20,991 bases of DNA from Azolla caroliniana (lineage: Eukaryota > Plantae > Polypodiophyta). This document shows positions 317 through 13,642 of this stretch, one piece after another. A program made the position numbers and the translations under genes. The DNA is taken from the NCBI GenBank assembly GCA_043228905.1, contig JBHGNT010000550.1, forward strand, positions 1-20,991. Reading direction: 5' to 3'. Each line of letters starts with the position of its first letter. Within the stretch, counting starts at the first letter, position 1. The notes below the pieces were generated by a model that was given only the letters and a program-made list of their open reading frames with translations, was not told the origin of the DNA and ran no database searches.

Positions 317-336
317 TGTCATAGAAAGGATGCCAC

Positions 337-410
337 GATGGAATGTAGGGGGTTGAACTCATGACCTCCTGGTCTTATTGGGCAACCTTATCAATCAAGC
401 TACATCCATC
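337..410 (-). other. Degenerate tRNA-like (Pol III A-box/B-box) unit in U3 of LTR A, antisense to the element
   Basis: Minus strand reads GATGGATG-TAGCTTGATTGATAAGG...GAGGTCATGAGTTCAACCCC...CATTCCATC. It is 74 nt, T8-to-G53 spacing is 44 nt (canonical 45), and the ends are self-complementary like an acceptor stem. Confidence 0.6.
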
Positions 411-465
411 TATGCATTATTGTATTATATAAGATTCAACTTATTACATTGTAGGTTAATCACTA

Positions 466-519
466 GAACTTTCAAGATACTTCTAGAGAATGCATCTTCA
501 TGCGCTCTCTAGAAGTTTC
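466..519. promoter_or_regulatory. Degenerate heat-shock-element arrays in LTR A
   Basis: GAA-ct-TTC-aa-GAT-ac-TTC-ta-GAG (466-488) and CTC-ta-GAA-gt-TTC (507-519), upstream of the TATA at 550. Confidence 0.5.
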
Positions 520-688
520 CTAGGTTACATGCATACCTCCACATTCTTGTATAAATACTTGGGTGCACCTTGATTACAATTAAGGTGAACAACACCAATT
601 ACGGAAGCATAATATCAGTTCTTGTTCTCTTGTCTATATTCTCTCTCTCTCTCTTAGTATTTAGCTTCATCTACTCGTCCGTGATAGT

Positions 689-699
689 TTGTTCACCTT
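689..699 (+). other. Self-complementary primer binding site of element A
   Basis: TTGTTCACCTT lies 2 nt after the LTR end and is the exact reverse complement of AAGGTGAACAA (582-592). There is no TGG tRNA-type PBS. Confidence 0.8.
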
Positions 700-715
700 C
701 ATTCTTCTTGCTACC

Positions 716-1763
716 ATGTCCGACTTTGTTAACAACTTAAACCAAGTAATGGCAACCTTGGAACAACTTCAACTAGAAAATGAAATCCTTTGTGGATCTT
801 TACGAGAGCTTCAAAATGGCAAATCCAACAACCCCCCACCCGCCGAGCCTCACCCTTCGTCAGCACCAAGCCCAACCCCTTCCTCTTCCCATCCATATGT
901 TCTTGAACCTAGTGTCAGCCTACCCGACAAATTCAACGGCTCGAGGGTGCATCTTCGCGGCTTCATCAATCAAATTCGGGTTATCATCTATTTTCAACCC
1001 CAACATTATGCTAGATATTTCTCTCAGGTCGGCCTCGTTGGCACCCTTCTCTCTGGACCGGCACAAGCGTGGTTTGCGCCATTGATTGAGACCTCATCCC
1101 CACTCTTAGACAACTTCCTTTCCTTCCTTGAAGAGTTTGAAGCCACATTCGGGAGAGACAGACCAATGACGAACGACACTCACGAAGCTCTATTCCTTAC
1201 AACAAGGCTCCCATCCGGCCTCCATCTATGCTTCAAAGTTTCGTCAGATTGCGTGCGATGTTAGCTGGGATGACCAAACCTTACACGACCATTTTCGTCG
1301 AGGCCTCCGAAACGATGTCAAGACTCTTCTCTTAAACTTTTTGGAGCCCACATCGTTGTCTCAAGTAATCTCCCAAGACGTTCAATGTGATAATCATCTT
1401 TTTGAGCTTCGATAGGAGGAACATGGGACTCGAGGATTTCAGTCTTCCTCCCACAACGCTCACATCACAAGGTCATATGTACCAATTTCACCAACAACGC
1501 CACGGTTGCCATCCTCCAATGATACTCATACCCAGATGGAGATCGACCCCCATACCCCAATGGAGATCGACCATGCTTGGTTCCAACCATTAACCGATGC
1601 CCAACGACGACATCGACGCGACAATGGCCTCTGCCTCTATTGTCATACCCCCGGCCATGTCATCCGCCATTACCCAGTGTGAAGCCCTCATCATCAATCC
1701 TACCGTGCACGTCTTGCGGAGGTTTCTTGACAACAAGAAAACGACCAAGTCCGGCTGCAGTAG
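716..1763 (+). pseudogene. gag: gag of element A (frameshifted)
   Basis: EPSVSLPDKFNGSR...LLSGPAQAWFAPL capsid-like segment, duplicated PMEID-type motif, and zinc knuckle CLYCHTPGHVIRHY with the last Cys lost. Ends ENDQVRLQ-TAG. Confidence 0.85.
1527..1572 (+). repeat. 24-bp tandem duplication in gag A
   Basis: CATACCCAGATGGAGATCGACCCC followed by CATACCCCAATGGAGATCGACC; duplicates the xMEID motif. Confidence 0.85.
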
Positions 1764-1788
1764 GAGCCATGCCGTTGGATGCTTCCTA
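1736..1788 (+). promoter_or_regulatory. Putative -1 ribosomal frameshift signal (slippery site plus pseudoknot), element A
   Basis: A-GAA-AAC, 6-nt spacer, stem 1749-1759/1770-1780, and loop TAGGA pairing with TCCTA (1784-1788). Pol is in the -1 frame relative to gag. Confidence 0.65.
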
Positions 1789-2309
1789 TTACCCTACTTC
1801 TCCGTGCTCCTACAATTCAGTTACACCAGCAGGAGGTTTTACTTTGCAAGTAAGTCTTTATTTTGGGTCTACTTCAATACAATCCCATGCCTTCCTCGAT
1901 TCTGGTGCATCTACTTGTTTCATTGATATCTTGTTCGTCCAAGCACATAATATCCCCACCGTCCGCACAACACAACCCATATCCGTTGAAGCTATTGACA
2001 GACGGGTTCTCTCTTCGAGGGCGGTTACCGAAGCCACTGTCCCATTGGTACTTCAAGTAGGGTCCCACCATGAGGTGTTAATGTTCTACCTCATTGTAAC
2101 CCCTTGACATCCGATTGTTTTAGGGCTATCTTGGTTGGAAACACACAATCCGACGATGGATTGGTTCAACCGTTCCATCACTTTTTCATAGACACCAATG
2201 CAGGGTCACGACTCCCCACACTGTTACTTGTGTGGGGGTTGCTTTCAGCTTGGTTGCGCATTCTTCCGATTTCAACTCAGTCTCCAACACTGTTGATTCC
2301 GTTGTGGCT
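1736..2309 (+). pseudogene. pol: pol N-terminus (aspartic protease) of element A
   Basis: AFLDSGASTCFID motif, then after an in-frame stop HPIVLGLSWLETHNP. Confidence 0.85.
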
Positions 2310-2722
2310 TGTCGAGACTCGTGGGTAGGAGAGAGTGAGAGCGAGAGCGAGAGCGGAAGAGAGAGGGTGTGTGTGTGCGTGAGAGAGTGAGAGAGAGTGA
2401 GAGAGATAAGACTTGAAATAGAAATGAGATTATATTATGGTGAAACAAGATTACAATGAGTAGGCTAAGGGCTAAAGATTGGTGTTGAACCGAATGAGTT
2501 GAAAGGAATGTATGGACACTTATTTATAGATCCTTATGGAGTATTCTAGAATGTTCTAGAATATTTTAGATTTTTATGATAACAAATATAATCATGAAAT
2601 ATTAAAGGATGTTCTAGAATATTCTAATATCTCGTAATAACTAAAAATATAATTATTATAATCACACAACATTTATGTTATTTCAATGGTTAAGGGTTCA
2701 ACACATAGACCAAGAAGTGACA
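2310..2722 (-). repeat. 3' LTR of element B (413 bp)
   Basis: Direct repeat of 7320-7786 with roughly 15 substitutions by eye. It lacks a 20-bp HSE unit and a 40-bp segment near the U3 start. Confidence 0.95.
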
Positions 2723-2735
2723 TTATCCCCCCTTT
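2723..2735 (-). other. Polypurine tract of element B
   Basis: AAAGGGGGGATAA on the minus strand immediately before the TGTCA of the 3' LTR. Confidence 0.85.
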
Positions 2736-2785
2736 CGATGACGAGTTCCACGAGTCGGAAGACAAGAGTTTGGACTTGGTTTATG

Positions 2786-2944
2786 GGGATATTTGTCATG
2801 AAATGCAACAACCATGTCGGAGGCATTAGCAAGATGCTCAACATGCTCCCTTGTTCGATCATTAGGTGTATAACCTAACCAATCAACCAAATAATATAGT
2901 TTGTTGCAGATGATCTTGGAGTCAAGAATGGCAGTAACCTCATA
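2786..2944 (-). other. Chromodomain at the integrase C-terminus
   Basis: YEVTAILDSK...YYLVDWLGY...EHLANASDMVVAFH; the Y/W/Y aromatic cage residues of group I chromodomains are retained. Confidence 0.9.
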
Positions 2945-5900
2945 TTTAGAGCCATTGGAAACTTCGATTGGAGGTGGGGGAGGTGTAAGACGTCCCGAAA
3001 TAGATCTTGTTGTGTAGGGCTCCAAAAGTGAAACATGGAAGACCGGGTGAAGACGCATATGAGGAGGGAGATCAAGACGAAATGTCACATCATTGATGTT
3101 ACCAGAGATCACATATGGGCCGAAACGTTGATAATCCAATTTGTAGCAAGGTCAGGTGGTTTTAATGCTACCTTCTAAGAGCCATACACGATCTCCTACT
3201 TGAAACGTAGTCGATGAATCACGCTGATGATGATCAACAATCTTCTTTTGAGTGTTTTGGGCATCACATAAATGATGCAAAAGTATATCCTGAACTTCTT
3301 AGAGTCGAGTGAGTTGATCTTCAGCAGTTGGGTTTTGCGGGAGTTCAGGATGTTCAAGCATCGTCCAATGAGGATGGTACCCAATGTTAGCGAAAAATGG
3401 GGAATATCCAGTAGAAGAATGTTCGGAGTTGTTATAAGCAAATTCCACCAAATGTAATAAATCCACTCAATCATCTTGTTGATAGTTGACAAAACAACGT
3501 AGATATTGTTCGACTGTTTGGTTGGTGCGCTCACTCTGCCCATTAGTCTTTGGATGGTAGCCGGAAGAGACTTTACAAGAAGTATGTAAGAGTTTGAACA
3601 TGTGCCGCCAAAATTTCGAGATGAATTGGGGACCCCGATCACTGATAACATCATCTGGAAGACCATGATGGCGAAACACCTCCCGCATGAGTAAATCGGT
3701 TGTCTCTTGACTAGTAATGGTCTTCGTGCATGGAAGGAAATGCGTCATCTTCGTAAAACAATCGACTACCATGAGAATAGAATCAAATCCCTTGGAAGGT
3801 GGAAGATCTGTAATAAAGTCCAAGGAAATAGATTTCCATGGGCTCTTTGGAATAGGCATTGGCTGTAATACGCCATATGGATGATGTCGAGGCTTTTTTG
3901 ATCGACAACATGTATCACAACTACGAACATAATCCGTAACAAAATGGCGAAGCCGTGGCCACCAATATCGGTTAGAAATCAACTCAAAAGTCTTATAGAT
4001 GCCGAAATGTCTAACCATTAGCGTGTCATGACATTGTTGCACGACTTTGAGTCGAGAAGGACCGTCAAGCACATACAAGAGAGTTTGTCGAAAAAGCAAA
4101 CCATCATGCCAATTGAACTAGGTGTAGTCTAGACAAGGATTTTGAGATTGGGAGCTGGAAGCACAATCTGGGATAATATGTCTCAAAACCTCTCGGGCGA
4201 ATGCATCAGTCGCAATCTGCTCCCGAATGGAATCAAGAAGCCTTGAATCTCCCGGTGTGTTGATAGTATGTATTGCCATTACTCGTAGACGATGAGGACC
4301 TAAGAGGATTTGCTTTTGACTTTCAAATACAGCCTCTCCTGGTTGAAGTTCCATATACGAACGTCGAGACAAAGCATCTGCTTTTCCTTGTTGAATCCCA
4401 GGGCAATATAGAATTACAAAATCAAAACGAGGTAAGAATTGCACCCAACGAGCTTGTCGACAATTCAAGACTCGAGCACTTTGGAAGTATGTTAGATTTT
4501 TGTGATCATTGTAGACAATAATCTGTTGAGAAAAACCCTGCAAAAAATGACGCCATTGTTGAAAAGAATCCACAATTGCAAGAAACTCTTTGTCGTGAAT
4601 CTCATAGTTGATTTCCGCAGTTTCAAATTTCCGTGAGTGAAAAGCCACAGGGTGCAATTCTCCATCTTCGCCAATCTGGGATAGTACGCTTCTGAGTGCG
4701 AAATCAGATGCATCAGTTTCAAGTATAAAGCACCTCATTGGATCGACATGCATTAAAATTGGTGCAGATGTAAACGCTTGCTTTAAACCCTCAAATGCAG
4801 AGTTCGCATCTATACCCCATACAAATGGTTGATTCTTGCAAGTTAGTTGAGTGAGGGGCAATACAGTCTTTGAATAATCTTTGATGAACTTGCGATAAAA
4901 GTTTGCGAACCCCAAAAAACATTGTACATCTCGCACAAACTGTGGTTTTTGCCAATCCAAAATTGTTTGAACCTTTGATGGATCCATAGAGATGCCATTT
5001 GAAGAGACTATGTACCCCAAAAATTCCACTTGAGACTGGTCGAAACTACACTTCTCCAATTTTGCATAGAGACCATATTCTTGTAACCGTTGCAAAACTT
5101 GGCGAACATGTATCTAATGCTCCTCTTGAGTTTTTGAGTAGATCAAGATATCATCCAAGTAAACTATGATGAAGATATTGAGGAAGTCTCGAAAAATGTC
5201 ATTCTCCATATGTTGGAAAACTGTTGGTGCATTCGTGAGACCAAATGGCATCATTGTATACTCAAAATGACCATAGCGAGTGCGGAACGCGGTCTTCCAT
5301 TCATCCCCAGGACGAATTCGAACAAGGTTGTAGGCACCTCGAAGATCTAACTTTGTGAAATACTTTGCACCCATGGAGGCTCTTTTCCTGGTTGCAAATC
5401 AATCGGGCAATCATATGGTCGATGCTCTGGTAATCTATTAGCCTTCACCTTATCGAACACATCGGAGAATTCTATGTACTTCTTTGGTAATTGGGACCCC
5501 AATTCTTGTGAGCTAGATGAGGGAGTTGCTAAAACCGCAAACACCATCATGTCTTCCTTCCTTCCATCCTCTCGTAACTGATGTATAGAGATTGTTGTAA
5601 TCGTGTGCAATCCTAGATCCATTGTTGGAGTTTCAAGAGACTCGGACTGTACTGTGACCTCTTCAATAGTTCTTTTTCTCCAATCAATAGTTGGGTTGTG
5701 TAACTCAAACCAAGGAAGACCAAGAACTAGAGAGTGCTCTGTACTACTAATGATGTTGAATGAGATGATACTAGCCAAATTACTTAGGACTACACGAATT
5801 GGTTCAGACTCTTCGACTATATCACCTGATGCTATAGGGCGACCATCGATGACTCCTATAGCTACTAGGTTCGGGAGCTTGTTCAAGATGATGTCTTGGG

Positions 5901-6068
5901 TCAATGCAAACTCGTGATCCATGAAACAAGAATTGGCTCCAGAATCTAGGAGGGCAGAGGCTAGGACTCGATGACCTGTAGATGTGCTAAGCTCAACTTG
6001 TGTAGAAAAAACTCTAATAACTTGATTTGATGAAATGGAACCACAACTAGGTACTAACTCTACATATC

Positions 6069-6120
6069 TAGGATGGTCCAACCAAATGGCTCCTATTTTG
6101 GTTGGACTTATTCATTTAAC
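6069..6120 (-). promoter_or_regulatory. Putative -1 frameshift signal (slippery site plus pseudoknot), element B
   Basis: G-TTA-AAT (6120-6114), 6-nt spacer, perfect 11-bp stem GTCCAACCAAA/TTTGGTTGGAC, loop ATAGGAGCCA, downstream TCCTA. Confidence 0.7.
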
Positions 6121-7235
6121 ACATCCTCTAATTGGCTCAAGACATCAAATCTATTCTCATGGCATGGGTTATTAGGCTTAATAGTTAAGTTATTAGAATT
6201 GATAGTATAACTCGAGGTAGGGTTGTCATATGCACTTACTTGGTAAACTTGACGTCTAGGTTTATGTGGACAATTCACAGCAATATGTTCTGGACCACCA
6301 CAATAGAGGCATAGGCGATGCGCCCGACGTCGTTGTTTCTTAGCATTTGATAAAGGCCCTCGACATTGTGTTGACTCTATTTCCATCAAAGTGGGATCAT
6401 CCCTCGTAATGGGTCTGGGAACTTGTGGCGGTGTTGCGACTATTGAAGCATACGTCTGTTCTGGTTGGTGGCGTAGCATTTGTTGACGTTCAGAACATCA
6501 CTCAAATAGGTGATTATCACATCACACAGCTCGACTAATGGCCTTTGTAAGAGACTTTGGATCTTCGTGGAAAGTAAGAAGAAGATCTTTGACATCGTTA
6601 CCCAAACCCTGACGAAATTGATCCATTAAGGCTGCCTCATCCCAAGGTATCTCACATGCTAAGAGACGGAAATGTGTTGCGTAGGCTGAAACGGGACGAT
6701 CTCCTTGTCAGAGTCTTCGAATCTTGTTTATTGCCATTCTAGTGCTATCAGTGTCTCCAAAACTAGCTTGAAACTCTTTAACGAATGCCTCGAAATCCTC
6801 CAACAATGGTGATTTCTTCTCTAGAAGTGGTGCAAACCATGCTAATGATGTACCACTTAGCAAGGTTCCTATTAATCCCACATGAGCAGCATCAGTTGGG
6901 TGTCCATTGGGATGTAACTGAATCACCAAGCGGACTTGATTCAGGAAACCTCGAAACAAAGATCGGGTACCATCAAACTTGGCAGGGAGGCTAATATTTG
7001 GTTCCCTTGGGGAGTTTTGAACCCCCGCCGCTTGTTCTCGTAATGTTAATATAGTAGCCTCGAGTTGATGAACCCGTTGTGATAACTCCTCATATTGATG
7101 AGCTTTCTTGGTACTCACTTGTTGTAAATCCCCGAGTAGCCTATGATTTTCTTGCTCTAATGCCACAAACTTAGTTGTGAGCATGTCGAGCTTAGAAAGG
7201 ACACGCATATACTCTTGCTTGCTCACAGATTCCAT
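6093..7235 (-). pseudogene. gag: gag of element B
   Basis: MESVSKQEY, coiled coil, EPNISLPAKFDGTR, CCHC knuckle CLYCGGPEHIAVNC. In-frame TGA stops are consistent with CGA deamination. Confidence 0.92.
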
Positions 7236-7306
7236 AACTAAGGGGGGGAAATAAAGAAGGGAAAAGAAGAAAGCTTGCTAGGGTTATTGGAAAAGGAAAC
7301 AGAAAG

Positions 7307-7317
7307 ATTCGGTTCAA
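7307..7317 (-). other. Self-complementary primer binding site of element B
   Basis: TTGAACCGAAT lies 2 nt after the LTR end and is complementary to ATTCGGTTCAA (7499-7489, minus strand). Confidence 0.82.
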
Positions 7318-7547
7318 ACTGTCGAGACTCGTGGGTAGGAGATAGAGCGAGAGCGAGAGTGATAGCGAAAGAGAGAGGGTGTGTGTGTGCATGAGAGAGA
7401 GTGAGAGAGATAAGACTTGAAATAGAAATGAGATTATATTATGATGAAACAAGATTACAATGAGTAGGCTAAGGGCTAAAGACTGGTGTTGAACCGAATT
7501 AGTTGAAATGAATGTATGGACACTTATTTATAGATCCTTATGGAGTA

Positions 7548-7648
7548 TTCTAGAATGTTCTAGAATATTTTAGATTTTTATAATAACAAATATAACCATG
7601 AAATATTAAAGGATGTTCTAGAATAATCTAGAATGTTCTAGAATATTC
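7548..7648. promoter_or_regulatory. Heat-shock-element arrays in LTR B
   Basis: TTC-ta-GAA-tg-TTC-ta-GAA (7548-7565) and TTC-ta-GAA-ta-aTC-ta-GAA-tg-TTC-ta-GAA-ta-TTC (7616-7648). Copies at 2544-2561 and 2612-2624. Confidence 0.7.
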
Positions 7649-7695
7649 TAATATATCGTAATAACTAAAAATATAATTATAATAATCACATAACA

Positions 7696-7767
7696 TATAT
7701 GTTATTTCAATGGTTAAGGGTTCAACACATAGACCAAGAAGTCATGGGTTCGATTCTTGATAAGCCA
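7696..7767 (+). other. Degenerate tRNA-like (Pol III A-box/B-box) unit in U3 of LTR B, antisense to the element
   Basis: TATTTCAATGGTTAAGG (A-box-like, from 7703) ... GAAGTCATGGGTTCGATTCT (B box 7747-7757) ... GCCA. T8-to-G53 spacing is 45 nt. Confidence 0.62.
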
Positions 7768-8009
7768 AAATGTTGTCTTCATGACATGGCTGATTCCAAC
7801 TTGGTCGCTTCTGTGCCATGGGACATCTTTGTTCCTATCATCAATTTGCCCGCAAGATGTAGCGACTTTTTGGATATGTTCGAAAAGTGAAATGCGAACA
7901 GGTTACCGACACATCGCCCCTAAGATTGCCCAATCGAACTCCAAGATGGTGCGCATCCACCATTTGGGCCCATCTATGGGCTATCTGAACCCGAAGTTGA
8001 CGCTCTTCA

Positions 8010-8500
8010 TGTGCGGAATAACGCTCAGCAAAAACCGAGTCTTAAACTCAATGGAAGAACAAAATAGAAATGGAAGAACACTTACACAAACAATAGAGAG
8101 GACACTGGATGTTTATGTGGAAAACCCTAAATGGGAAAAAAAACCACGGGAGGCCACAAACTCCAACTACCACTATGAGAAGAAGGGTACAAGGAGAGAC
8201 TCAGAGGCAACGACCTCGAGCTCTATACCTTCCCCAACCGGCAGTAACAACAGAAAGACTTGAATTTGTATCTCTCTTTCTCTCTCTCTCTCTCTCTCTG
8301 CAACCTCTGTACAACAATATATCGACACACACATAAAGTCATTGCCCTAAGTCCTATTTATACTTATATGACTTTAGGACTATTTACAAATGTGGCCATG
8401 ACAGGCACACTAGAAACATATTTACATATATGTTCCTGGATCCTGTTCACACTAGATTCGCCCTATCCGAATCTCATCCGAAGGGACTGAATTCCCAACA
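8010..8500 (-). repeat. 3' LTR of copia C
   Basis: Begins TGTTGGGAAT on the minus strand after PPT GAAGGGGGGGTT (8512-8501). Homologous to 13151-13642, contains a (CT)n tract. Left boundary uncertain by about 10 bp. Confidence 0.88.
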
Positions 8501-8510
8501 AACCCCCCCT

Positions 8511-10213
8511 TCACTCTGGCATGGGATGCCTTGTCAATCTGATTCGTCTCTTGCACATGCCTAGCTTGTCAGTCGATAGCACCTTGGTCAGCATGTCCGA
8601 CCCGTTCTCCTCAGTATGGATCTTCCTCAGCAAGAAATCTTTATCTTCTACCTTCTCCCGGAGCTAGTGATATCACCTTTGGATGTGCTTCGCTCGAGAG
8701 TAGTATGTTACGTTCTTCGCAAGGTGAATGGGCTTTGACTGTCACAGTAGAGCCGGCATTCCTCATGCCGGATCCCTAGCTCTCCCATAAAGTCCTTCAT
8801 CCAGATTACCTCTTTGTCAGCTTCTACAACCGCCATGTACGATGCTTCCATTGTCGATAGTGCAACGGACTTCTGCAACCTCGGCTGCCACGATACGGCT
8901 CCCCCTGCATATGTTATTACATATCTGGAAGTTGAACAATTGGTATCCGCATCAGCCGACATATCCGAATCCTTGAATACTTCAAGTTGGGGTTTTCCAT
9001 AGCCGAATCGGAGGCACATACTCGAGGTGACTTTCAAGTACCAGAGTATCCACGTGACCGCGGTCCAATGTTCTCTTCCCGAATTGCTCATGAACCGACT
9101 GACCACTCCGACAACATATCTGATATCCGGTCGGGTACACACCATTGCGTACATCAAGCTTCCGACGGTAGAGGCATATGGTATCTTCATCATCTTTGAT
9201 TTCTCTGTCTTGTTCTTCGGACTTTGCTTTCTGGACAACTTGCAGTTTGTCGGAAGTGTCGATCCGACCGACTTAGCATCCGACATGCTGAACCTTTGAA
9301 GCACCTTTGTCATGTACTTTTCCTATGACAGCCACAAATGCTTCTTCGACCGGTCCCAAACTATGTGCATCCCTAGGATCTATCTCGTCGAACCCATATC
9401 TTTCATTGCGATGACTGGCTCAAAGCCTTCTTCAGCATTCTGATCTTGATATGGTCTCATCTGACGATCAGCATGTTGTCCACATATAGCAATAGTATCA
9501 AGAAGTCTCCTCCATCAAACTTCTTCACAAATACGCAGTGGTCGGCTTGCATCTTGTGGTATCCTTGGTCGGTCATGAAGGAGTCGAACTTTCGGTACCA
9601 TTGCCCAGGAGCTTGTTTTAGTCCGTATAAGCTCTTCTTCAATCGGCATACCATGTGCTCATTCCCTTTCTTGACGAATCCTTTCGGTTGTTGCATGTAG
9701 ATCTCTTCTTCGAGGTCGCCATGTAGGAACGTCGTCTTGACATCTAGTTGCTCTACCTTGAGGTCCATGTTTGCCGCTATGCTCAACACCGTCTAAATGG
9801 ATGTCATCTTCACTACCAGGACAAACATCTCATCGAAGTCCACTCCTTTCTTATGTTGGAAGCCCTTCACCACAATGCGAGCCTTATACCTTGGTGGATT
9901 TCTGGAGTCTCCCGATTTTAGCTTGTACACCCACTTGTTCCGGAGCGCTCTCTTTCCTTTCGGCAGCTCTGTCAATTCATATGTGTGGTTCTCATGTAGG
10001 GAATCCATCTCATCCTACATGACACTTAACCACTTGCGGCTGTGGGTGTCTCTCTTGGCTCCTTCGAAGCTTTCCGACTCCCCCTCGTCGGTCAACAACA
10101 CATGCTCTACATCGGAAATCTCCAGGGGGGCTCTTCTCCTCCTGAGAGGATATCTCCTTCCTTAGCCTTTGGCCACCGGTTCCTTCGTTTGTTCTTCATC
10201 CGAATCCAATTCG
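8511..10213 (-). pseudogene. pol: copia pol (RT-RNase H), disrupted
   Basis: KWVYKLK, YKARIVVKGF, QLDVKTTFLHG, LKKSLYGLKQAP, YVDNML, TRPDI, DSDMSAD, YCDSQ, DMLTK; multiple stops and frameshifts. Confidence 0.95.
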
Positions 10214-10620
10214 GTATATATTGTGAACTGCACATAAGCACATGCACACCACAATATCATGCAAAAAACAATTTAGTTTATGTGAATAGATGAAGAAAAA
10301 CTTCCATTAAATTTGTATGAAAAACTTTAGTAATTTGTAAGCATTATATCGAGCCGTCTCTAAGAGTTAAGAGTGCCAAGTGAATGCCATGAGGTGTAAC
10401 TTGTGTGCCTACAACTACAAACTTGTGATGTAAAAAATGAACACATTTAAATTAAGGTGTTGAATTCAATACTACTATTAGGGACCCTTAAATGTAAATG
10501 AATTATAAGGTGAGTACATACCCTAAAACTAAATGTCGAAACACTAAAGAAGAAAGAACGAAGAAGTGGAAAACAAAAAAGAAAGAAGGAAAAGAAGAAA
10601 AAAAGAAGTTAAAAGAAAAA

Positions 10621-10679
10621 GTTTTTGAACTCTACAACTATCACAATCTTAAGAACTATAACCACTAGGCCATTCACTT
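10621..10679 (-). other. Possible tRNA-derived SINE-like head
   Basis: Minus strand TGGCCTAGTGGTTATAG (A-box) ... GAGTTCAAAAAC (weak B box), spacing 42 nt, followed by T-runs. Confidence 0.35.
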
Positions 10680-10820
10680 TCAATGATAATATTTTGTGTA
10701 CTTTATTACTTTTAATTTTTTGAAGTCAGACACGAGAAAACTTTGAGTGGGGCTCCTCGTAACAGACACCGCCTGCCGTGAGCTTTTTATCCACATCGGA
10801 CAGTGCAAATCAGTTGAGCG

Positions 10821-10884
10821 ACGAGCGACATCTTTAATATTTGGTACTAGTAACGAGCGACATCTTTAATATTTGGTACTAGTA
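10821..10884. repeat. Perfect 32-bp tandem duplication
   Basis: ACGAGCGACATCTTTAATATTTGGTACTAGTA twice. Confidence 0.95.
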
Positions 10885-11104
10885 TGTATGTACATATGTA
10901 CGTATGCTTAAGTTAGACATGAGAGAGAGAGAGAGAGAGAGAGTATGTATGTATGTATGTATGTAATAATGTATGTATGTATGTACATATATGCTTGTCT
11001 CTCTCCTCCTCTGTTCTCCTCCTCCTGTGTGTGTTGTGTGTGTGTAGAAGTAGTAGTAGTAGCTCAGAGACAGAAATCCGCAGACAGAGAGAGAGAGAGA
11101 GAGA
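10884..11104. repeat. Compound microsatellites (TATG)n, (GA)n, (GT)n, (AGT)n upstream of the BAHD ATG
   Basis: Directly visible; a (GA)n tract abuts the ATG at 11106. Confidence 0.9.
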
Positions 11105-11105
11105 A

Positions 11106-11510
11106 ATGAAGATCGAGCGCTTCTCTCCACGCCTGGTCTTCCCCCTCACCCCTTCCCCTCACCCTGCCCACCATATCCCTCTCAGCAGCTCCGACCTGGC
11201 TGTCCCCCGAGTCCATGTGGAGGTCATCTATGCCTTCTCCTCTCCACCTCCTTCAGGACATGCCTCCTCGCCTAGTAGTAGTATAGAAACCGGTCTGGCG
11301 GAGGTGCTGTGCTCGTATCGGGAATGGGCGGGCCGCCTCGACTTGGGCCACCCCCGCCCATCCATTGTACTCAACGATGCCGGGGCCCTCTTCCTCGAAG
11401 CCTCGGCCGATGGGCCCCTCTCTGAGTTATCTCCTTCCTTCCAACCTTCGCGCCTCCTCCTCGACCTCGTCCCCGTGAATCGAGGCTCCCCTCATCTCCT
11501 CCTTGTCCAG
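11106..11510 (+). CDS. BAHD acyltransferase exon 1 (135 codons)
   Basis: MKIERFSP...VIYAF...YREWAGRL...LNDAGALFLEASAD...LLLVQ, ending CAG|GTAAGA at the conserved phase-0 'Q' intron of BAHD genes. Confidence 0.92.
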
Positions 11511-11680
11511 GTAAGAACAAAAAGAACAACAATCAACCTATAGGCTACCCTCTCCCTTCTCTCTTGTTGGATATTTTACCTGTATACCCCCACACTTCCC
11601 GCCCATGATTCAATTCCCCCCTCCTTGTTGATTTTATACATACATCTTGGATACTTGATTTTATACATACATACACACAC

Positions 11681-11726
<46 letters not shown>

Positions 11727-12260
11727 ATAGATCCTGGTTGTTTCAGTTTTTTGGCTTGTACTCAGCACTGTCTCGATACTTGCTTGTGGGACCTTTAGGG
11801 TTCGGGGATCCTCGCAATTAGCCTAATGTCAGACCTTGGTGTTGCTTGATTGTTTTCCTTGGGTTTGGATCTGGCTGTGTTCATTGAACAATTACACTTG
11901 AAGGACTTCTTTAGCTTCGACAAGAAGCGAAGGTACTTAGCCTCTTGGGCATATTTCTGATGTTTGAAATCTTGATGGTCTAGATACCTGTAATTTGTCA
12001 GGGTATCTTGTGAGTGGCAAAACGTTCCAACTAATTCAGAATGAAGGTAGGTTATATACCATACCACTACCTCTAAATTTGTCAAGGTGTCTTGTGAGTG
12101 GCGAAAAGCGCAACTAATTCAGAATGAAGGTAGGTTTTTTAACCTTACTTATAGCACACCAAGTCCTTATGTCATGATATACCATACCATTCTAGGCACA
12201 TTGTTAGATTTGGATCTCATCGTATGGATGAAGAGGATTGAATTCCTTTTGTATATGTAG
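11511..12260 (+). other. 750-bp GT-AG intron of the BAHD gene
   Basis: GTAAGA...TATGTAG; splicing restores LLVQ|VTTFTCGG. Contains (TATATG)n at ~11681-11725 and a ~62-bp imperfect direct repeat (11992-12053 and 12076-12136). Confidence 0.92.
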
Positions 12261-13061
12261 GTGACAACATTTACTTGTGGTGGAATGACTTTGGGTATAG
12301 CTCGACATCACCAAGTTGCCGATGGGGAGGCAGCAAGTGAATTCATGAATGCGTGGGGACGTACAGTTCGAGGCGTGCTAGTGCCTGTGTCAACACCACC
12401 ATTGCATGATCGCTCGGCACTCATGCCACGAGACCCTCCCATGCCTATGTTTGATCACATTGAATATAAGAAACTGCCTCCTAAGTCGGACCCAGATTCA
12501 ACTACCCAAGAGTACCCCGAACTCAGCATCAACAAGATCAATTTTAGCATAGAAATGCTCAAGAAAATCAAGGTGCAAGCTTCAAAAGGGGCTAGCGAAG
12601 GCGTTTTCTACTCCACCTTCGTGAGCTTGTTGGCACATTTGTGGCGGTGCATCACGAAATCACGCGGATTGGAAGATGACGACGAGTGTGAAACGAAGGC
12701 GCTTGTGGCTGTGAACGTGAGGAAACGGATTGATCCTCCTCTTCCCGAGGGTTATTTCGGTAATGCAATGTGCCATACAAGCCCCCATACCACAATCAAA
12801 AACTTATTGGAGCAACCTCTCTCATTCGCAGCTAGTATTATAAATGCTTCCATAAAGAATATTACAAGTGACTACGTTCGTTCCGCGCTTGATTTCATCG
12901 AACTCCAACAAAAGAGCCATGTCGATGAAGCACCGGATGTATGCCGTCATCTTCATGTGCATCACCTCCCACACCGTGGCCTCGATCTTGTCCGGTCTCT
13001 TGTCCCCGAACTGAACCGGCAACCAAAGATCTTTAACCACCAGCATATCCCTCATCTTTGA
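12261..13061 (+). pseudogene. BAHD acyltransferase exon 2, truncated at ~12915 and running into antisense copia gag to a stop at 13061
   Basis: HxxxD motif HQVADG, STFVSLLAHLWRC, PPLPEGYFGNA, DYVRSALDFIELQ. No DFGWG motif; about 48 unrelated residues follow. Confidence 0.85.
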
Positions 13062-13135
13062 CTTCCACACTGAGTAGTTGGAGCCGGTGAGCTTGAACAT
13101 GCCGCCAAAAGATTCTTCCATTTTCTGTGTTGTTC

Positions 13136-13147
13136 GCTCTGATATCA
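13136..13147 (-). other. tRNA-iMet primer binding site of copia D
   Basis: TGATATCAGAGC, one mismatch from TGGTATCAGAGC, 3 nt from the LTR end. Confidence 0.85.
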
Positions 13148-13150
13148 GTT

Positions 13151-13642
13151 TGAAGAGAAATGCGCGGAATATCGCTTGGCCGCAACTGAGTAGTAAATCA
13201 CTTCTATAAGAATCAAACACAAAAATGGGAAGGGGAGTGTACACAAAAAAAATGACGCAGGATATTTACGTGGAAAACCCTATTAGGGAAAAACCACGGG
13301 TGCCCATAGATTCCAAACTATCACTATGAAGAGAAGGGGTACAATCAGAGACTTGGAGGCAACGACTTGGCTCTGTTTCTTCGCATTGATGAGGTTACAA
13401 CAGAGTATATGTTTGTATCTCTCTCTCATTGTACAACGGTTACCACAACATGAACACAACTACACTAAAGTGATTGTCGTAAGTCATATTTATACTTATA
13501 TGAACTGAGGACTATTTCCAAATATAGCCTCAATGGGCTTACTCAGAAACATATTTACAAATATGTCTTCTACATCCGGTTCTCACCGGGTCTTCTACAT
13601 CCGGTTCTCAAGATCCCATCTGGAGGGACCGAAATCCCAATA
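13151..13642 (-). repeat. 5' LTR of copia D
   Basis: Collinear with 8010-8500 but clearly diverged. Contains a 21-bp direct repeat (13565-13585 and 13590-13610). Confidence 0.88.

What the first reader, a model, noticed from the sequence alone, without database searches (positions are those of the whole stretch)
337..7767. tRNA-like Pol III promoter module built into the U3 of two different chromovirus LTR families
Seen: about 20 bp inside the LTR start, both A (337-410) and B (7696-7767) carry a 72-74 nt tRNA-shaped unit, antisense to the element. Each has A-box-like and B-box-like motifs at tRNA spacing (44 and 45 nt) and a shared core AGACCARGARGTCATGRGTTCRA, while the flanking LTR sequence is poorly alignable. 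Neither has a TTTT terminator before the LTR edge. Known: Cassandra elements carry 5S rRNA in their LTRs, and TFIIIC-bound B boxes can act as chromatin barriers. I do not know of a described tRNA equivalent in chromoviruses, but cannot exclude one. Inference: this is an inherited LTR module, not two chance SINE insertions. It could insulate the LTR promoter from silencing or drive Pol III transcription outward (5' LTR) or antisense into the PPT/chromodomain region (3' LTR). These elements appear not to need a tRNA primer, so priming would not explain it.
Basis: partly seen in the sequence, partly recalled or inferred. Interest (0 to 1): 0.85.

Follow-up and report, generated by a model that had tools for sequence, protein, structure and literature searches.

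The report
Backwards tRNA promoter in retrotransposon ends
A whole branch of protein-coding plant jumping genes carries, back to front at the outer edge of its end repeats, the two promoter boxes of a tRNA gene, kept while the tRNA fold and neighbouring DNA decayed, so they likely bind the host's tRNA-gene factor TFIIIC and shield the element's own promoter, although binding and transcription are untested.

Summary
The units are real and inherited. A (337-409) and B (7696-7767) match host tRNA genes on one strand only. The same antisense unit starts the LTR of every Tcn1-like chromovirus family sampled in this genome (29 representatives; 1525 of 2193 PPT-LTR junctions). It is absent from 28 of 28 LTRs of other chromoviruses. 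Silent sites between deep families are at chance, yet the A box (18 of 29 vs 1 of 145 controls) and B box persist, with free position 59 and unpaired arms: a DNA promoter, not a tRNA. The elements show self-priming complementarity. Corrections: no cloverleaf; A's U3 is recombinant, and its unit is 87-89% identical to the head of a free-standing repeat (575 matches). Best reading: a selected TFIIIC site acting as a boundary (0.5). No binding or RNA data. Closest known: Helenus/Cassandra, which are non-coding. The scan noted similar LTR units before in fungal genomes (unchecked notes).

The parts
317..686 (+). 5' LTR of element A (Tcn1-like chromovirus, decayed and interrupted copy); no 3' LTR found in the window or the next 20 kb
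337..409 (-). tRNA-gene-derived unit of A, antisense to the element
350..358 (-). B box of A's unit (tRNA positions 53-61)
390..402 (-). A box of A's unit; decayed in this copy, 8 of 8 in three family representatives
550..592 (+). TATA box (550) and 11-nt predicted self-primer (582-592) of A
689..699 (+). PBS of A, complementary to 582-592
2310..2722 (-). 3' LTR of element B, 390 of 405 aligned bases identical to the 5' LTR; unit remnant at about 2678-2717 keeps the A box and lacks the B box
2726..7277 (-). B coding region in pieces: gag, protease, RT/RNase H, integrase, SH3 and chromodomain with the three aromatic cage residues
7307..7317 (-). PBS of B, complementary to 7489-7499
7320..7786 (-). 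5' LTR of element B; TATA box 7525-7532, predicted self-primer 7489-7499; B is inserted in A with a 5-bp target duplication
7696..7767 (+). tRNA-gene-derived unit of B, antisense to the element; A box 7702-7713, B box 7748-7756

Best explanation
The unit is the internal promoter (A box and B box) of a tRNA gene, fixed antisense at the outer end of U3 across one clade of protein-coding Tcn1-like chromoviruses, and it is likely kept by selection as a DNA site for TFIIIC that would act as a portable boundary between flanking chromatin and the element's own Pol II promoter. Shown: tRNA origin, position, orientation, presence across the clade, conservation of box positions and loss of arm pairing. 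Inferred: (1) one ancestral capture of a tRNA gene or SINE head; (2) TFIIIC binds; (3) the bound complex keeps the 150-250 bp between the unit and the TATA box open and blocks spreading silencing or read-in transcription, which would help elements whose caged chromodomain is thought to aim them at heterochromatin; (4) the outward orientation keeps any Pol III transcript away from the Pol II start. Odds by step: inherited tRNA-derived module 0.95; selected as a Pol III promoter element 0.75; boundary role rather than a role of a transcript about 0.5 overall.
For: Breadth: 1525 of 2193 PPT-TGTCA junctions have the reverse B-box core within 2-32 nt, reversed-pattern control 0. Of 21 unexplained junctions among the first 100 listed that missed it, 17 have a chromodomain upstream and all 17 show the unit (core mutated or further in), one more shows it without a domain hit, and 3 have neither. 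0 of 28 LTR starts from three other chromovirus families have it. Selection: integrase identity A vs B 0.56, fourfold sites 0.23 of 53 (chance 0.26); B vs C1 0.31 of 61; C1 vs M 0.29 of 65. In 20 own-genome representatives T47 is 20 of 20, Y60 20 of 20, C61 17 of 20, and position 59 is free (0.0 bits); the profile follows that of host tRNAs at 21 unforced positions (rho 0.74). A box at least 7 of 8 at tRNA spacing in 18 of 29 vs 1 of 145 control windows. The unit aligns in 31 of 36 deep pairs, the next flank in 2 of 36. DNA, not RNA fold: mean pairs 2.6 of 7 acceptor and 1.3 of 5 anticodon over 22 units, against 7 and 5 in 6 of 7 host tRNAs. Present in young copies with identical LTRs in families C, F and H. 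Precedent: TFIIIC sites act as barriers and insulators (PMC4228148, abstract and passages); B2 SINEs as mobile boundaries (PMC8136502, abstract); group I chromodomain of MAGGY binds H3K9me2/3 (PMC3350952, passages).
Against: No ChIP, reporter or strand-specific RNA data. Positions 53-57 were forced by my anchor, and the 9 metagenome representatives were found with a pattern that holds the B box, so only the other positions count. The A box is weak or shifted to 41-42 nt in the D/E/J/mP group (scores 3-5). Family H2 spread to 203 matches with T54 changed, and one LTR pair is 429 of 434 identical; the K representative has a broken B box. SM-Tcn1 of Selaginella lacks the unit by eye, so Tcn1 elements can live without it. 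U3 moves between families by recombination, which can mimic conservation. The T stem keeps 3.4 of 5 pairs if G-U is allowed, so some RNA role is not excluded. In yeast such sites also block passing Pol II and can repress nearby promoters, a cost at the 3' LTR that the genomic RNA must cross.
Confidence: 0.5

Rival explanations
1. The boxes are a working Pol III promoter and the product matters: an RNA that runs out of the 5' LTR into the flank, or from the 3' LTR antisense across the PPT and chromodomain region, limiting or tuning the element.
For: The A box is kept as well as the B box in most families; a bare TFIIIC site needs mainly the B box (recalled). No T4 before the LTR edge in 18 of 18. 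A free-standing repeat of about 215 bp begins with an A-type unit, has no internal T4 on either strand and sits in GA tracts, as a retroposed Pol III RNA would.
Against: First T4 beyond the 3' LTR lies 9 to 435 nt away, so there is no shared product. G and K have a T run right after the B box. CAA is upstream in 9 of 14 host tRNA genes but 3 of 20 units, controls 14 of 100; four C-side families have CAA about 7 nt before the A box, just outside my window. The direction of exchange with the free repeat is unresolved.
Confidence: 0.2
2. The sequence works in the genomic RNA: U3 is complementary to a host tRNA's T and D arms and binds it, like the 3' part of the bipartite PBS of Ty3 or the tRNA-Lys3-like sequence in HIV-1 U3-R.
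For: Explains the antisense orientation and the U3 position directly. Ty3 has such a site in U3 (PMC5371799, passages); the HIV case is known to me from a citing review and its reference list only (PMC6468702). Positions 44-48, outside the B box, are conserved (0.81 pairwise). One metagenome family has 21 exact bases of host tRNA-Lys(UUU). A-family duplexes with tRNA-Ile are predicted at -69 to -83 kcal/mol (no shuffle control).
Against: The elements show self-priming complementarity, so no tRNA is held at the 5' end to bridge the ends (PMC6317226). No single isotype is best across families (Ile, Lys, Arg, Gly, Thr, Asp), though my tRNA set is incomplete. Positions 50 and 59 take all four bases in the middle of the would-be duplex.
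Confidence: 0.13
3. It is a passenger: an old tRNA or SINE piece carried along, looking conserved because U3 is swapped between families or refreshed from SINEs and tRNA genes.
For: A's LTR is a recombinant, and its unit is 87-89% identical to a free repeat against at most 65% for 26 other representatives. Boxes are altered in H2 and K and weak in D/E. An unchecked scan note reads a fungal case this way (e1-9852194).
Against: Swapping would carry flanks and non-box positions too; instead the anticodon arm is at 0.33 and position 59 at 0.25 pairwise identity beside near-invariant box bases in 9 deep lineages, and flanks do not align. Leaving A out, B, C, M and N are still saturated at silent sites and keep both boxes.
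Confidence: 0.12
4. The unit is a landing pad or decoy for elements that insert upstream of Pol III genes.
For: Unchecked scan notes from gut-fungus-like genomes (e1-10420520, e1-10420559).
Against: In 178 kb of unselected DNA the 7 whole LTR matches are unbroken and the 2 cut ones break elsewhere. The sample is small.
Confidence: 0.05

Closest known systems
Helenus, Ajax and Cassandra (TRIMp3; Kojima 2024, PMC10886601; parts 1-4 of 6 of the text and searched passages read, supplements not read)
   Same: Small-RNA-gene sequence inside LTRs; in Helenus tRNA-derived, with boxes A and B conserved, no working tRNA and no role in priming.
   Different: Those are non-coding elements of 311-1263 bp thought to be transcribed from the Pol III promoter. 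Here the carriers are 5.2-6.1 kb gag-pol chromoviruses with a TATA box and self-primer, and the unit points outward. The paper argues that autonomous partners must use Pol II and are unlikely to share such LTR sequence. It also says that 'not a few' Repbase LTRs hold tRNA-like parts and followed up only the short ones. I found no statement of Helenus orientation.
Tcn1 chromoviruses of non-seed plants (PMC2864245, passages and supplement S3; PMC6317226, passages; PMC3350952, passages)
   Same: gag-pol with a caged group I chromodomain, no tRNA PBS, predicted self-priming, 5-bp target duplication.
   Different: No tRNA-like LTR unit in the passages searched ('tRNA-like' 0 hits in PMC6317226); SM-Tcn1's LTR has tandem repeats there instead (by eye). 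Large supplements of these papers could not be read.
Ty3 bipartite PBS (PMC5371799, passages) and the tRNA-Lys3-like sequence in HIV-1 U3-R (Piekna-Przybylska 2010; seen only as cited in PMC6468702)
   Same: tRNA-complementary sequence in U3 of a replication-competent LTR element.
   Different: There it pairs with the primer tRNA. Here priming is predicted to be tRNA-free, no one isotype fits, and the kept positions are those of the promoter boxes at gene spacing.
TFIIIC boundary sites: yeast tDNA and ETC sites (PMC4228148), mouse B2 SINE (PMC8136502)
   Same: A/B-box or B-box DNA with effects on neighbouring chromatin and Pol II transcription.
   Different: Those are host loci or SINEs; here the site is a fixed part of an LTR. 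The activity is inferred, not shown.
Twin SINE of Culex (as described in PMC3286476, one passage)
   Same: Two tRNA-related regions in one short repeat, like the free repeat that shares A's unit.
   Different: The two units of the free repeat face each other, it lies in GA tracts, and one unit is shared with an LTR.

Membership tests
Tcn1 chromovirus (carrier elements) | gag, PR, RT, RH, INT, chromodomain order between LTRs | tested here: met
Tcn1 chromovirus (carrier elements) | Group I chromodomain with aromatic cage | tested here: met
   Three cage residues in B, C1, C2, F, M, mQ; the script did not recover the domain for H, D, O
Tcn1 chromovirus (carrier elements) | No tRNA PBS; self-priming complementarity | tested here: met
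   10 of 11 copies, 11-13 nt, 31-33 nt after TATA
Tcn1 chromovirus (carrier elements) | Placement in the Tcn1 clade with reference elements | not tested
   The tree held only own and metagenome rows; likeness to SM-Tcn1 seen by eye
Helenus / TRIMp3 | tRNA-derived sequence with boxes A and B in the LTR | tested here: met
Helenus / TRIMp3 | Short, non-coding element | tested here: not met
   Whole copies are 5.2-6.1 kb with gag-pol
Helenus / TRIMp3 | tRNA-complementary PBS | tested here: not met
   PBS is complementary to the element's own R region
Helenus / TRIMp3 | Element RNA made from the Pol III promoter | not testable with these tools
   The unit points away from the element, so it cannot make the genomic RNA; no RNA data
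tRNA gene | Cloverleaf | tested here: not met
Ordinary SINE insertion into an LTR | Present in some copies only, with own target duplication and tail | tested here: not met
   Present in family copies and families at the same place; no tail seen; but A's unit is shared with a free repeat
TFIIIC boundary element | B-box consensus | tested here: met
   altered in H2 and K
TFIIIC boundary element | TFIIIC occupancy and barrier activity | not testable with these tools
   needs ChIP and reporters
Ty3-type 3' PBS in U3 | Conserved complementarity to the primer tRNA | tested here: inconclusive
   No shared isotype among those held, tRNA set incomplete; no tRNA primer predicted

The most novel reading that the evidence does not exclude
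Autonomous, heterochromatin-seeking retrotransposons carry their own Pol III boundary in each LTR, an active outward-facing tRNA promoter that protects the Pol II promoter, seeds thousands of TFIIIC sites in the genome and has given birth to a SINE-like family made of two LTR-borne units facing each other; with the fungal cases noted by the scan, this may be a recurrent design in Tf1/Tcn1-type elements.
Probability: 0.3. Interest if true: 0.85.

Novelty: new variant of a known kind. Interest (0 to 1): 0.66.

Why it matters
How an element that inserts into silent chromatin still gets transcribed is an open question for chromoviruses. A conserved TFIIIC site at the LTR edge gives a direct, testable answer. 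It would extend Pol III promoters in LTRs from non-coding TRIMs to autonomous elements, against the stated expectation, and offers a source for TRIMp3 elements and for new SINEs. At least 2504 exact copies of one pattern, nearly all of one family among the 100 listed, would also be a large pool of TFIIIC sites in this genome.

Tried and rejected
ARAGORN and Rfam: no unit called. Single-strand folding: z -1.3 to -2.0, no cloverleaf. Expression: no RNA holder listed; the four runs laid are contigs and say nothing on strand or level. Viral contigs: no integrase relative; 3 pattern matches not examined. Metagenome pattern scan: 55 stretches, 31 with a chromodomain upstream, all from one series of assemblies, so no reach beyond near hosts was shown; the other 24 were dropped. 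The chromodomain column was empty through a script error and was redone. Protein search gave relatives without DNA context. One search was a badly formed pattern with overlapping matches; its count is not used. Alignment A3 had one row with wrong coordinates and is not used. The unit as primer: rejected, since A and D have another PBS type but the same unit. A shared terminator in the PPT: rejected. H2 as a fully broken B box: corrected to a T54 change. Direction of exchange between A and the free repeat: unresolved (65-column tree; the second unit resembles family F at z 4.5, best of 29 comparisons). Literature: searches showed no description of a tRNA promoter in LTRs of autonomous chromoviruses; they cover open-access text only.
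Full report
Setting. The window is the start of contig C550 of a 523-Mb genome and is matched at 100% on C17. The host is probably a non-seed plant (inferred from the Tcn1-like elements). Element A starts at 317 on the plus strand. Element B (2310-7786, minus strand, 5-bp target duplication, LTRs 390 of 405 identical) is inserted in A and encodes gag, RT/RNase H, integrase, SH3 and chromodomain in pieces.

The observation. Against 83 host tRNA genes they score above dinucleotide shuffles on the tRNA strand only: A 1 of 200, B 0 of 200, five family copies 0 of 200, opposite strand 9-150 of 200. They are not tRNAs. ARAGORN and Rfam call none. A model from 16 host tRNAs ranks A first in the window at only 12.3 bits and B third at 8.7. 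Six A-family copies score 14.6-29.6 bits, three B copies 8.5, C copies 11-13.5.

It is a clade trait. The 30 loci fetched for each of A and B show the unit at the LTR start, apart from a few copies cut at the end. A pattern of LTR start plus reverse B box has 2504 exact matches, control 0, nearly all of a third family among the 100 listed. Sampling by PPT-LTR junction alone gave many more families. 1525 of 2193 junctions have the core within 2-32 nt. Of 21 unexplained misses among the first 100 junctions, 17 have a chromodomain upstream and all 17 carry the unit, 9 further in and 8 with a point change; one more carries it without a domain hit; 3 are not LTRs. Carriers include whole copies with identical LTRs. 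A domain-only search returned 30 loci of other chromovirus families; 28 had a readable LTR start and none has the unit. The 20 carrier rows form one side of a 100/100 branch against 4 outgroup rows. SM-Tcn1 lacks the unit by eye. 31 of 55 metagenome matches are chromodomain-linked relatives from one series of assemblies.

It looks selected as DNA. Fourfold-degenerate integrase sites between deep families are at chance (0.23-0.37 for the pairs A-B, B-C1, C1-M, A-D, B-D; chance 0.26; 50-70 sites each). I took one real copy for each of 29 families or subfamilies, 20 from this genome and 9 from metagenomes, anchored on the B-box core. Positions 53-57 are forced by that anchor. Outside them, T47 is 20 of 20, Y60 20 of 20, C61 17 of 20 and position 59 has all four bases; the profile follows host tRNAs (rho 0.74, 21 positions). 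An A box of at least 7 of 8 lies at tRNA spacing in 18 of 29 against 1 of 145 control windows. The unit aligns in 31 of 36 pairs of 9 deep lineages, the next 55 nt in 2 of 36, the 55 nt after that in 9 of 36. Arms are not kept: 2.6 of 7 acceptor, 2.4 of 4 D, 1.3 of 5 anticodon, 3.4 of 5 T pairs with G-U allowed; strict pairs in the T stem fall from 17 of 20 at 53-61 to 1 of 20 at 49-65. Against: the A box is weak or displaced in D, E, J and mP; H2 has T54 changed in 203 matches and a young LTR pair; K's box is broken.

Priming is explained without it. In 10 of 11 copies an 11-13-nt complement of the PBS begins 31-33 nt after the TATA box, and three PBS types change together with their complements. 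This fits the self-priming predicted for Tcn1 (PMC6317226). By eye SM-Tcn1 has a 15-nt complement too, though its describers found none.

A complication in family A. A's U3 beyond the unit aligns with B, C1, F and M (z 3.9-6.6) and not with D, O or E2 (z -0.3 to 1.5), while its TATA-R-U5 part aligns with D (z 12.7) and its integrase lies on the D side. In 178 kb of unselected DNA a profile of the unit gave 14 hits: 9 at LTR starts, 3 unplaced, and 2 in a free-standing repeat. That repeat is about 215 bp, lies in GA tracts, holds two tRNA-like units facing each other, has no coding neighbour in common among 20 loci, and its head has 575 matches. Its head is 87-89% identical to A's unit and at most 65% to the 26 others. 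Either the LTR unit gave rise to the repeat, which would imply Pol III activity, or the repeat refreshed A's unit. A short tree does not settle it; the second unit resembles family F's LTR (z 4.5), a weak hint for an LTR origin.

Mechanism. What is kept is what TFIIIC reads, at the border between host DNA and the Pol II promoter, facing away from it. TFIIIC sites act as barriers, insulators and roadblocks in yeast (PMC4228148), and the carriers have a caged chromodomain of the kind that binds H3K9 methyl in MAGGY. I therefore favour a portable boundary (0.5). A functional outward or antisense Pol III RNA is second (0.2): the A box is kept and no T4 lies before the edge in 18 of 18, but the first T4 beyond the 3' LTR is 9-435 nt away and the plant CAA motif (PMC3082873, section read) is not enriched (3 of 20, controls 14 of 100, host genes 9 of 14). 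Pairing of U3 with a host tRNA, as in Ty3, explains the orientation but not the free positions or the self-priming (0.13). A passenger spread by recombination (0.12) and a landing pad (0.05) fit less well. No expression or binding data could be had.

Comparison and novelty. Helenus has tRNA-derived A and B boxes in the LTRs of short non-coding elements, one family in Selaginella. These carriers fail two of its defining features (size and coding, PBS type), so they are not Helenus. Ten paper searches showed no account of such a unit in autonomous chromoviruses; Kojima's remark that other Repbase LTRs hold tRNA-like parts, and supplements I could not read, may bear on this. Unchecked notes of this scan report LTR-borne tRNA-type promoters in fungal chromoviruses; none was found for this sequence. 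Verdict: a new variant of a known kind, real and probably selected, function inferred; interest 0.66.

Noticed in passing
L315:1780-2110; L329-L348: Free-standing repeat of about 215 bp in GA tracts with two tRNA-like units facing each other, sometimes in tandem; head shared with family A's LTR unit; 575 matches to the head.
   Followed up: partly
window 317-686: Family A's LTR is a recombinant: U3 from the B/C side, R-U5, PBS and integrase from the D side.
   Followed up: yes
window 582-592 and 689-699; 7489-7499 and 7307-7317; L138-L169: Self-priming complementarity with three co-varying PBS types; also visible by eye in the published SM-Tcn1 sequence, where it was reported as not found.
   Followed up: yes
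L198:221-330: One metagenome relative of B has 21 exact bases of host tRNA-Lys(UUU), more than its close relatives; old state or a recent refresh.
   Followed up: partly
L010:1500-1580: Subfamily A2 has a perfect inverted repeat of about 12 bp around the unit, longer than an acceptor stem.
   Followed up: no
L151:5049-6111: Tandem array with a 354-bp period made of chromodomain end, PPT and LTR start of family G.
   Followed up: no
L061, L069, L078-L080, L135: Tandem clusters of tRNA-Lys(TTT), -Ile(TAT) and -Arg(TCT) genes with many decayed copies.
   Followed up: no
window 12261-13061: Transferase-family (PF02458) reading frame abutting a copia-type element on the other strand.
   Followed up: no
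window 8010-13530: Two related copia-type repeats about 5.1 kb apart, the first interrupting A's pol.
   Followed up: no
window 1-20991: The two stretches searched are matched at 100% on contig C17 at the same spacing, so the contig is probably an assembly duplicate.
   Followed up: partly
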